Part shown: piece after piece, positions 38,594-40,034 of the stretch | Numbering within the stretch: position 1 is the stretch's first letter | How the letters are laid out: the number at the start of each line of letters is the position of its first letter | From: Eledone cirrhosa | Lineage: Eukaryota | Assembly (NCBI GenBank): GCA_964016885.1 | Contig: OZ024749.1 | Location: 42,532,001-42,596,000 of the forward strand | Direction: 5' to 3' | Length of the DNA: 64,000 nucleotides | Translations under genes and position numbers: made by a program | The notes under the pieces: model-generated | Told to the model about the DNA's origin: nothing | Database searches by the model: none | The model's input: the letters and a program-made list of their open reading frames with translations, nothing else

Positions 38594-39243
38594 AATGATC
38601 TCTCATCCACTCATAACACTCACACTCTGCACTAAATATACTTAATACTTAGTAATAAAGGTAGATGTGAAAATTTATTGATAAACTTATAAAGGAAGTC
38701 TTTGTTGTAGTATCACGTTTCCGAAAACACTGTTATCTTTTATAACACAACACAGAAATCACTTAGAAATTTATGGGCGGACACTGGGAACGATTGTGAA
38801 AGGAAAAGTTTAACAAGAATTACAAGAATAGCAAGAATATATTCTGTTATAGATATAAATAGAAAAACACAGACAACCTATTACTCACAGATTGGATTTA
38901 CCAATAGAAGCATGTTTGGTTTTTACGTTCTGTGTTTCGTTCGTTATTATTAATTTTTTTTCTTCATATTTTAATACATGTGTTTATTCTTTAGATTCTT
39001 TCACTATTTCCAATCATCGGGATTTGGCCATTCTAGAGCACCGTATTTCATTGTTATTTATAATAAAAAAAAAAAATTTATGTTTTATTCCGATTAATTC
39101 TATATATTGATATTTTGTTTGGTAGTTTTAGTATCAAGGCAGTAAGGGTTTAATTCGACTTAGATATATGAAAAAAGGACGTAATCGCTTCTTGTGTGTT
39201 TGTGTATATATATATATGTATAGTATATGTAAATCTATGTATG

Positions 39244-39284
<41 letters not shown>

Positions 39285-39405
39285 GAATGTATATTTAGTG
39301 TATTTTGCAATACACTGTATGCTTAATTAAAAGCATTTCGAAGACCTTACGCTATTGTTTTAGAGTAGTGACAGTCTCACTTACTTTAAATTTTCATAAA
39401 ACAAG

Positions 39406-39467
39406 GGAGATAAAGCTGATAGAGCTCTGTTTCGTACTGATTCGTACTTATCAAAGCCAAGTACTCC
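39406..39467 (-). ncRNA. type I hammerhead ribozyme, U3-A8 variant core
   Basis: GGAG tactt GGCT-TTGATAA-GTAC gaatca GTAC-GAAA-CAGAGCTCT-ATC-AGCT ttat CTCC. Confidence 0.7.
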
Positions 39468-39746
39468 ACCTGTTTGCTGAAAATCATGAATGTTTGCTGA
39501 AAATTTAAAGTAAGTGAGACTGTCACTACTCTAAAATAATAGCATAAGGTCTTCGAAATGCTTTTAATTAAGCATACAGTGTATTGCAAAATACACTAAA
39601 TATACATTCATATATATATAGCTATTTCAGAGCACCAATTCTAATTTTCAATTTCTGCTTGACCTGCAACCGTTCTGTATAATCAGTTCCTGATTATTAC
39701 TAGAATTCTATAAGAATCAAATATTCATGATTTTCAGCAAACAGAT

Positions 39747-39808
39747 GGAGTACTTGGCTTTGATAAGTACCAATCAGTACGAAACAGAGCTCTGCCAGCT
39801 TTATCTCC
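39747..39808 (+). ncRNA. type I hammerhead ribozyme, U3-A8 variant core (cleavage triplet mutated to GCC)
   Basis: GGAG tactt GGCT-TTGATAA-GTAC caatca GTAC-GAAA-CAGAGCTCT-GCC-AGCT ttat CTCC. Confidence 0.7.
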
Positions 39809-39957
39809 CTTGTTTGCTAAAATTTAAAGTAAGTGAGACTGTCACTACTCTAAAACAATAACATAAGGTCTTCGAAATGCTTTTAATTAAGCATACAGTG
39901 TATTGCAAAATACACTATATATACATTCATATATATATAGCTATTTCAGAGCACCAA

Positions 39958-40034
<77 letters not shown>

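What the first reader, a model, noticed from the sequence alone, without database searches (positions are those of the whole stretch)
39406..39808. Hammerhead with compensatory U3-A8 replacement of the catalytic C3-G8 pair
Seen: both copies read TTGATAA rather than CTGATGA. They have a perfect stem II (GTAC/GTAC), GAAA, a palindromic stem III (CAGAGCTCTG), and stem I with an internal loop (GGCT/AGCT, GGAG/CTCC). Established: positions 3 and 8 form a Watson-Crick pair in the active fold, and U3-A8 is a rare tolerated variant missed by canonical motif searches. Inference: the double change is compensatory rather than decay. The triplets ATC and GCC each differ by one base from an ancestral GTC. 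The two copies come from one insertion, so they are not independent evidence.
Basis: partly seen in the sequence, partly recalled or inferred. Interest (0 to 1): 0.7.

Follow-up and report, generated by a model that had tools for sequence, protein, structure and literature searches.

The report
Retrozyme hammerhead with swapped core pair
Both motifs are damaged copies of a 320-base non-coding repeat, present in thousands of copies, whose hammerhead RNA fold carries a U-A pair where C-G is usual; the repeat likely cuts its own RNA and is likely pasted around by Penelope-type jumping genes, and the swapped pair itself is already published.

Summary
Observation confirmed. Both motifs are arms of one two-armed insertion of a 320-nt non-coding repeat (an animal retrozyme). 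U3-A8 is fixed in this subfamily (457 of 463 exact-flank matches, none C3-G8), GUC is the majority triplet, and sister subfamilies of the same unit carry C3-G8. Genome-wide there are 3,200 U3-A8 and 1,709 C3-G8 units. Mixed states occur at about the decay rate, and the tree needs two switches. All three stems covary, so the change is compensatory. It is not rare here, and it is in print (PMC3088659; PMC4209133, about 1,300 in Schistosoma Penelope elements). Insertions show Penelope footprints: 5'-to-5' arms (35 of 60 loci), two 3' ends about 27 nt apart, and (TA)n targets. No partner element was identified. Both window copies have a broken stem III pair and lie on opposite strands, so they are probably inactive. 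Cleavage and expression are untested. This scan found the same family before (e1-8820023). Verdict: new member of a known kind, with a clear natural record of the 3-8 swap.

The parts
39277..39496 (-). Arm A: 5'-truncated unit (about 220 nt), 3' end at site A (about 141 nt after the cleavage site), pointing outward
   Evidence: L001 1058-1277
39491..39964 (+). Arm B: about 1.5 units (473 nt) of the 320-nt repeat, 3' end at site B (about 167-169 nt after the cleavage site)
   Evidence: L001 1272-1745
39491..39496 (.). 6-nt overlap (microhomology) joining the 5' ends of the two arms
   Evidence: sequence
39391..39486 (-). Hammerhead copy A with extended stem I; core TTGATAA 39454-39448; lesion G16.2->A at 39420 breaks the 15.2-16.2 pair; predicted cut 3' of 39418
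39729..39823 (+). Hammerhead copy B with extended stem I; core TTGATAA 39760-39766, stem II 39767-39780, GAAA 39781-39784; lesion U16.1->C at 39795 breaks the 15.1-16.1 pair; predicted cut 3' of 39796
39938..39964 (+). About 27-nt optional 3' extension between end sites A and B (like the Penelope 'tail'), present on arm B only
39200..39276 (.). (TA)n-rich run abutting the 3' end of arm A (inferred target)
39965..40024 (.). (TA)n run abutting the 3' end of arm B (inferred target)

Best explanation
The two motifs are decayed arms of one insertion of a 320-nt non-coding repeat whose type I hammerhead fold has a compensatory U3-A8 core; intact family members likely self-cleave after GUC, probably best as dimers, and are likely copied into (TA)n runs by a Penelope-type reverse transcriptase and endonuclease. 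Shown: unit length, tandem arrays, no ORF, covariation of the 3-8 pair and all stems, two switches on the tree, two-armed insertions with two fixed 3' ends at TA runs. Inferred steps: (1) arrays are transcribed as multimers; (2) neighbouring palindromic stems III pair, free the core and cut out 320-nt monomers, which may circularise; (3) a Penelope-like protein breaks both strands of a (TA)n run and primes two cDNAs from two internal start sites about 27 nt apart; (4) the cDNAs run through the cleavage site on a circular or uncut multimeric template, stop at random and join by microhomology. The window copies are probably dead: each has a broken stem III pair, and a read-through transcript would pair the arms with each other.
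For: Fixed U3-A8 in the subfamily, 457 of 463. C3-G8 in homologous sister subfamilies. The 2x2 table is 61/4/5/23; copies are related, so its Fisher p of 3e-13 overstates the case. Mixed states are about as frequent as departures at invariant core positions (3-8 of about 98 each). Trees without columns 3 and 8 need 2 changes, in 101 of 118 rows and 132 of 136 rows; an AU test rejects a single U-A clade, p = 0.00014. On 50 hand-picked rows, 92% of cells pair and 18 of 27 pairs change on both sides, against at most 46% paired and 7 pairs when partners are slid. Palindromic stem III and GUC/GUU are kept while stem sequences turn over. Dimer folding frees the core for intact sf1 copies, -89.9 against -78.6 kcal/mol for two monomers. 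The unit folds as a circle at z = -6.4. Architecture in 60 position-ordered loci: 35 two-armed; 88 of 102 segment 3' ends at two sites; 76 of these 88 abut TA runs of 8 nt or more, against a 7% background; 21 of 26 classifiable pairs have one arm at each site, p = 0.0007. These match Penelope features in PMC8557442 and the two-strand, two-start-site behaviour in PMC11167929. 107 of 125 segments cross the cleavage site. G000 holds over 10,000 GIY-YIG candidates.
Against: No cleavage or expression data exist for this family. Element 5' ends do not pile up at the cleavage site (2 of 102 within 5 nt; 12 of 102 in the next 30 nt, p = 0.25), so the DNA gives no direct trace of cutting. The predicted monomer fold traps the core in most representatives, and the dimer fold leaves the core free in only 10 of 19. 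No sequence link to an autonomous element was found in 30 GIY-YIG loci. The 27-nt extension is a little shorter than the 30-40 nt tail in print. End site A lies in the unit's own TA-rich stretch, so it may reflect annealing to the target. In PMC11167929 hammerhead mutants did not affect insertion in vitro. Most of the 60-locus sample was chosen by an exact core match, so it must include the ribozyme, which inflates the count of segments crossing the cut site.
Confidence: 0.8

Rival explanations
1. The unit is the orphaned pseudo-LTR of an autonomous Penelope-like element; the copies are truncated insertions of that element rather than an independent retrozyme.
For: The insertion architecture is the Penelope one. 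Opposite-strand hammerhead pairs 100-700 bp apart are described for truncated Schistosoma PLEs (PMC4209133). An autonomous-type family here also has a U3-A8 core (12 of 30 GIY-YIG loci).
Against: Units follow each other head to tail at about 320 nt with nothing between them, and two loci show in-phase arrays across 3.5-4.8 kb. Shared sequence among 30 loci stops at the unit. The unit has stops in all six frames. The GIY-YIG family's hammerhead is a minimal type with unrelated flanks.
Confidence: 0.1
2. The fold is conserved for a role other than cleavage, for example as an RT-binding structure; U3-A8 members cleave weakly or not at all and spread from uncut multimers.
For: No 5' ends at the cut site, and most cDNAs cross it. 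Monomer folds trap the core. Hammerhead cleavage was dispensable for PAc insertion in vitro (PMC11167929).
Against: Every catalytic core position, the 3-8 pair and the NUH triplet stay conserved through many subfamilies while the stems turn over, and only the free position 7 and H17 vary. Ribozymes covarying at 3-8 are reported active in vitro (PMC3088659 passage).
Confidence: 0.08
3. U3 and A8 are chance decay of a canonical core in this one insertion.
For: Both changes are transitions, and the window copies carry other private lesions.
Against: 457 of 463 subfamily matches carry both changes and none carries C3-G8. There are 3,200 units genome-wide.
Confidence: 0.01

Closest known systems
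Animal non-LTR retrozymes (Cervera & de la Pena 2020, PMC7229834; Li et al. bioRxiv 10.64898/2026.07.22.740005)
   Same: Non-coding tandem unit in the 150-450 bp range, low GC, one type I hammerhead per unit, highly self-paired predicted circle, thousands of copies, co-occurrence with Penelope-like elements.
   Different: About two thirds of counted units have U3-A8. Most copies are dispersed 1-1.5-unit, often two-armed insertions with Penelope-type ends. The word search found no 'tail' or 'target-primed' in the bioRxiv main text and no 'inverted' in PMC7229834. RNA has not been shown here.
U3-A8 hammerheads of Schistosoma mansoni Cercyon PLEs (Cervera & de la Pena 2014, PMC4209133) and natural U3-A8 cores in Perreault et al. 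2011 (PMC3088659)
   Same: Same core covariation; about 1,300 hits in one genome; opposite-strand pairs 100-700 bp apart; palindromic stem III thought to need dimers.
   Different: The Schistosoma motifs are minimal hammerheads in PLE pseudo-LTRs. Here the ribozyme has a 4-bp stem II, a long stem I with an internal loop and a 10-13 nt palindrome, in an ORF-less unit, and both core states occur within one traceable lineage.
Penelope-like elements: insertion signature (Craig et al. 2021, PMC8557442; Frangieh et al. 2024, PMC11167929)
   Same: Partial tandems, inverted 5'-truncated copy, optional 3' tail defined by two RT start sites, AT-rich or (TA)n targets.
   Different: No RT or GIY-YIG ORF; tail about 27 nt; no homology to an autonomous partner found in 30 loci tested.

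Membership tests
Type I hammerhead ribozyme | Conserved core (U4 G5 A6 N7, A9, G12 A13 A14, A15.1) in type I order | tested here: met
   90-95 of 100 units keep each position; position 7 varies; both window copies intact
Type I hammerhead ribozyme | Watson-Crick pair between positions 3 and 8 | tested here: met
   C-G 61, U-A 23, mixed 9, other or gapped 7 of 100; two switches on the tree
Type I hammerhead ribozyme | Three helices supported by covariation | tested here: met
   18 of 27 pairs change on both sides, 92% of cells paired in 50 hand-picked rows; slid controls at most 46%
Type I hammerhead ribozyme | NUH triplet with A15.1-U16.1 and 15.2-16.2 pairs, in the family | tested here: met
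   GTC in 97 of 125 subfamily copies, 18 unparsed; U16.1 in 94 and G16.2 in 94 of 100 units
Type I hammerhead ribozyme | The same pairs in the two window copies | tested here: not met
   Copy A has G16.2->A at 39420, copy B has U16.1->C at 39795; both are private lesions
Type I hammerhead ribozyme | Loop 1-loop 2 tertiary contact | tested here: inconclusive
   An internal loop in stem I and a 5-6 nt A-rich loop II are present; the resemblance to the Schistosoma contact is recalled, not tested
Type I hammerhead ribozyme | Rfam hammerhead model at gathering score | tested here: not met
   HH9 15.8 against 52 bits for copy B; no hit at E <= 0.01 on the family copy that brought in each of 7 loci, three of them C3-G8, so the miss is not due to U3-A8 alone
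Type I hammerhead ribozyme | Site-specific self-cleavage | not testable with these tools
   Needs a cleavage assay
Animal non-LTR retrozyme | 150-450 bp non-coding tandem unit with one type I hammerhead each | tested here: met
   320-nt spacing; in-phase arrays over 3.5-4.8 kb; stops in all six frames
Animal non-LTR retrozyme | Highly self-paired monomer circle (predicted) | tested here: met
   Circular MFE -75.0 against -49.5 +/- 4.0 kcal/mol in 60 shuffles, one unit tested
Animal non-LTR retrozyme | Expression as linear and circular monomer RNA | not testable with these tools
   No RNA holder listed
Non-autonomous Penelope-mobilised element | Inverted 5'-truncated copy, partial tandems, optional 3' tail, microsatellite targets | tested here: met
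   35 of 60 loci two-armed; 88 of 102 ends at two sites; 76 of 88 at TA runs; 21 of 26 pairs use one site each
Non-autonomous Penelope-mobilised element | Sequence shared with an autonomous partner | tested here: inconclusive
   None in 30 of over 10,000 GIY-YIG candidates; the one hit (L068) is a unit inserted beside an element's end
Autonomous Penelope-like element | RT plus GIY-YIG ORF between pseudo-LTRs | tested here: not met
   Units abut directly with no ORF

The most novel reading that the evidence does not exclude
[quoted passage not shown] Position 3 would then be under two constraints. The switch to U3-A8 is part of a path (3-15.4: C-G, U-G, U-A; 2.1-15.5: U-A, U-G, C-G) along which the lock helix grew from 4-5 to 6-7 pairs and was never broken. 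The subfamily ladder would be a ready-made natural series for testing how a catalytic core pair is exchanged, and the two-armed insertions would be direct genomic evidence that Penelope enzymes mobilise retrozymes. The lock rests on folding predictions and four transitions, which chance would allow about one time in four.
Probability: 0.2. Interest if true: 0.6.

Novelty: new member of a known kind. Interest (0 to 1): 0.33.

Why it matters
The U3-A8 core and animal retrozymes are both in print, so the headline is not new. What this family adds is modest but usable. One lineage holds both core states in thousands of copies with two reconstructable switches, giving natural matched pairs for measuring what the 3-8 exchange costs. 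Its insertions carry the Penelope footprint (two arms, two start sites, TA targets), which supports by mechanism the proposal that Penelope-like elements mobilise animal retrozymes. Practically, a CUGANGA-only search would miss about two thirds of the counted units.

Tried and rejected
Rfam: no gathering-level hit on the window copies or on family copies in 7 loci; one Hammerhead_1 hit at L173 2045-2089 lies outside the stretch that brought the locus in and was not identified. Expression: no RNA holder listed; two runs of unrecorded kind, laid as contigs, say nothing on expression or ends. Cleavage-defined 5' ends: an apparent pile-up came from my reference starting at the cut site; with a longer reference there is none. 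'C3-G8 is the family majority': suggested by the 100-unit sample (61 against 23) but reversed genome-wide (1,709 against 3,200), because the longer anchor excluded several U-A subfamilies and the sample covered only the first 80 Mb of C1. 'U3-A8 arose to relieve misfolding': an in-silico swap favours U-A in 17 of 19 representatives, but the later U-A subfamilies restore full pairing of the competing helix, so relief is not a general explanation; one representative (L323) was mis-framed and is disregarded. Autonomous partner: none in 30 GIY-YIG loci. Pfam confirmed GIY-YIG in 2 of 4 ORF pieces and found no RT family in any; I read Penelope-type RT motifs there by eye, from recall. Papers not held: Przybilski & Hammann 2007, Lunse et al. 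2017, Nelson & Uhlenbeck 2008, Hammann et al. 2012, Kore et al. 1998, so rates for U3-A8 and for non-NUH triplets are recalled only.

Full report
Observation. The window holds two copies of a type I hammerhead motif on opposite strands, cores at 39454-39448 (minus) and 39760-39766 (plus), each reading TTGATAA, then a 4-bp stem II, GAAA, a palindromic stem III and stem I with an internal loop. The triplets are ATC and GCC. Both stretches fold far better than shuffles (z -3.6 and -4.0). Rfam gives only 15.8 bits for copy B.

The element. G000 is 3.0 Gb; I infer an animal from its size and repeat content. The motif belongs to a 320-nt unit: hammerheads recur at 320-nt spacing in L027, and two loci show in-phase arrays over 3.5-4.8 kb with 7 and 10 units detected. 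The unit has stops in all six frames, and sequence shared among the first 30 loci ends at the unit. A 20-nt motif upstream of the ribozyme has 3,850 exact matches. In the window, arm A (39277-39496, minus) and arm B (39491-39964, plus, about 1.5 units) meet at their 5' ends through a 6-nt overlap and point outward into TA runs.

Is U3-A8 compensatory? With positions 3 and 8 left free, the subfamily's 24-nt core pattern has 463 matches. Four lack U3 and all of these keep A8; two lack A8 and both keep U3. So 457 of 463 are U3-A8 and none is C3-G8. GTC is read in 97 of 125 subfamily copies, 10 read otherwise and 18 were not parsed; the window's ATC and GCC are private changes. A diverged copy of the same unit in L068 has the canonical core, and it belongs to a large C3-G8 subfamily. 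In the first 100 places of the upstream motif on C1, chosen without regard to the core, the states were C-G 61, U-A 23, U-G 5, C-A 4 and other or gapped 7. Invariant core positions depart in 3-8 of about 98 rows each, so the mixed states are about what decay after insertion gives. That sample leans to C3-G8. With a shorter anchor the genome-wide counts are 1,709 C3-G8 and 3,200 U3-A8; mixed states were not counted genome-wide.

Trees built without columns 3 and 8 need two changes of state, on 101 of 118 rows (17 truncated or rearranged rows dropped) and again on 132 of 136 rows (bootstrap not fully settled). An AU test rejects one U-A clade (p = 0.00014); the groups were defined by state, but I had already seen a first tree. 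The window's clade sits at the end of a ladder of C3-G8 subfamilies. Two of these are more decayed (0.060 and 0.062 from their majority) and the nearest is of similar age (0.028 against 0.027), so C-G to U-A is the likely direction there. The direction for the second U-A clade is open, the tree is unrooted, and recombination was not tested. On 50 rows that I picked for intact structure across subfamilies, 92% of cells pair and 18 of 27 pairs change on both sides; sliding the partners gives at most 46% and 7. After the switch, the main U-A clade went through further subfamilies that remodelled stems I, II and III while keeping U3-A8, GUC and a palindrome. This is the pattern expected from selection on a working ribozyme, which is inference.

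Folding. [quoted passage not shown] Across 19 representatives the core was free in the dimer fold in 10. Tertiary contacts are not modelled. The competing helix has 4-5 pairs in three C3-G8 representatives, 3 in the second U-A clade and 6-7 in the main U-A clade, and it is kept through U-G intermediates. All four changes are transitions, so chance explains this about one time in four; I keep it as the novel case only. One unit folded as a circle gives z = -6.4.

Mobilisation. In 60 position-ordered loci of the subfamily, 35 have two arms joined 5' to 5'. Of 102 segments, 88 end at one of two sites about 27 nt apart, and 76 of those 88 abut TA runs, against 7% for random flanks. Of 26 pairs with both ends classified, 21 use one site each (48% expected, p = 0.0007); 9 further pairs had an unclassified end. 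The 5' ends are scattered, with no excess at the cut site. 107 of 125 segments cross the cut site and 20 cross it twice, so the template was circular or an uncut multimer; the sample was chosen to contain the ribozyme, which inflates the first count. Passages of PMC8557442 describe partial tandems, an inverted 5'-truncated copy, a 30-40 bp tail on one end and microsatellite targets as Penelope-like features. PMC11167929 (parts 1-2 of 4 read) shows a Penelope protein cutting and extending both strands of AT-rich DNA from two internal start sites that define the tail; there, hammerhead cleavage was not needed for insertion. G000 has 10,597 GIY-YIG candidates. Twelve of the 30 loci fetched carry an unrelated minimal hammerhead, also U3-A8, 450-700 nt after the start of the domain; none shares sequence with the unit apart from one adjacent insertion. 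The partner is not identified.

The window copies. Each has lost a stem III pair next to the cut site. That such changes slow cleavage strongly is recalled, not read here. Being on opposite strands they cannot form a double hammerhead in one transcript, and a read-through RNA would pair the arms. They are probably inert.

What is known. Perreault et al. 2011 (PMC3088659, passages) report C3-G8 covarying to U3-A8 in several natural hammerheads and cite in vitro activity. Cervera & de la Pena 2014 (PMC4209133, parts 1-2 of 4) report about 1,300 U3-A8 hits tied to Schistosoma Cercyon elements and opposite-strand pairs 100-700 bp apart. PMC7229834 (parts 2-3 of 6 and passages) defines animal retrozymes, shows circles and dimer-dependent cleavage, and names Penelope-like elements as candidate mobilisers. 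The bioRxiv preprint 10.64898/2026.07.22.740005 (part 1 of 5 and passages) argues this from phylogeny. PMC3884650 and PMC6765202 were seen as passages only. Four searches listed no paper that I could see tracing both core states in one retrozyme lineage or mapping Penelope-type ends on retrozymes; I saw only listings for most hits, five relevant papers were not held, and no supplements were read, so this is weak evidence of absence. The scan itself has noted this family before in the same genome and similar ones elsewhere.

Verdict. New member of a known kind, interest 0.33; cleavage, expression and the mobilising enzyme are inferred.

Noticed in passing
window 21107 (+) and 61029 (+): Two other hammerhead-like motifs with canonical C3-G8 cores, from unrelated repeat families also seen in other loci (L018, L040, L002); the second has a long stem II.
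   Followed up: no
L067-L070, L074, L078, L083, L086, L087, L089, L091, L094, L316-L322: A GIY-YIG-encoding family, Penelope-like by eye, with a cysteine-rich linker and a U3-A8 minimal hammerhead in its 3' repeat; L317 has an inverted 5' copy, and the two copies read in full (L068, L091) end at TA runs.
   Followed up: partly
L033:416, L044:938, L101:4776-4844, L103, L104, L081, L088: Further unrelated minimal hammerhead families with U3-A8 (core TTGAAAA), often as opposite-strand pairs; U3-A8 is widespread across families in this genome.
   Followed up: no
L234 and L253: Two near-identical units share a stem I deletion and a mismatched C3-A8 core, so a defective copy was duplicated or copied in trans.
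   Followed up: no
L028, L033, L058, L066, L110, L339: Copies from different subfamilies often lie within a few hundred to 2,000 bases of each other, suggesting insertion into the TA runs of earlier copies.
   Followed up: no
L324 and L326: Long, decayed in-phase arrays (3.5-4.8 kb) of U3-A8 units; possible source loci or local satellite expansion.
   Followed up: partly
C3-G8 and second U-A subfamilies (L231, L270, L272, L216): The usually conserved G10.1-C11.1 pair at the base of stem II is A-U or a mismatch in these subfamilies and becomes G-C just before the main switch to U3-A8 (L295, L307, L309).
   Followed up: partly
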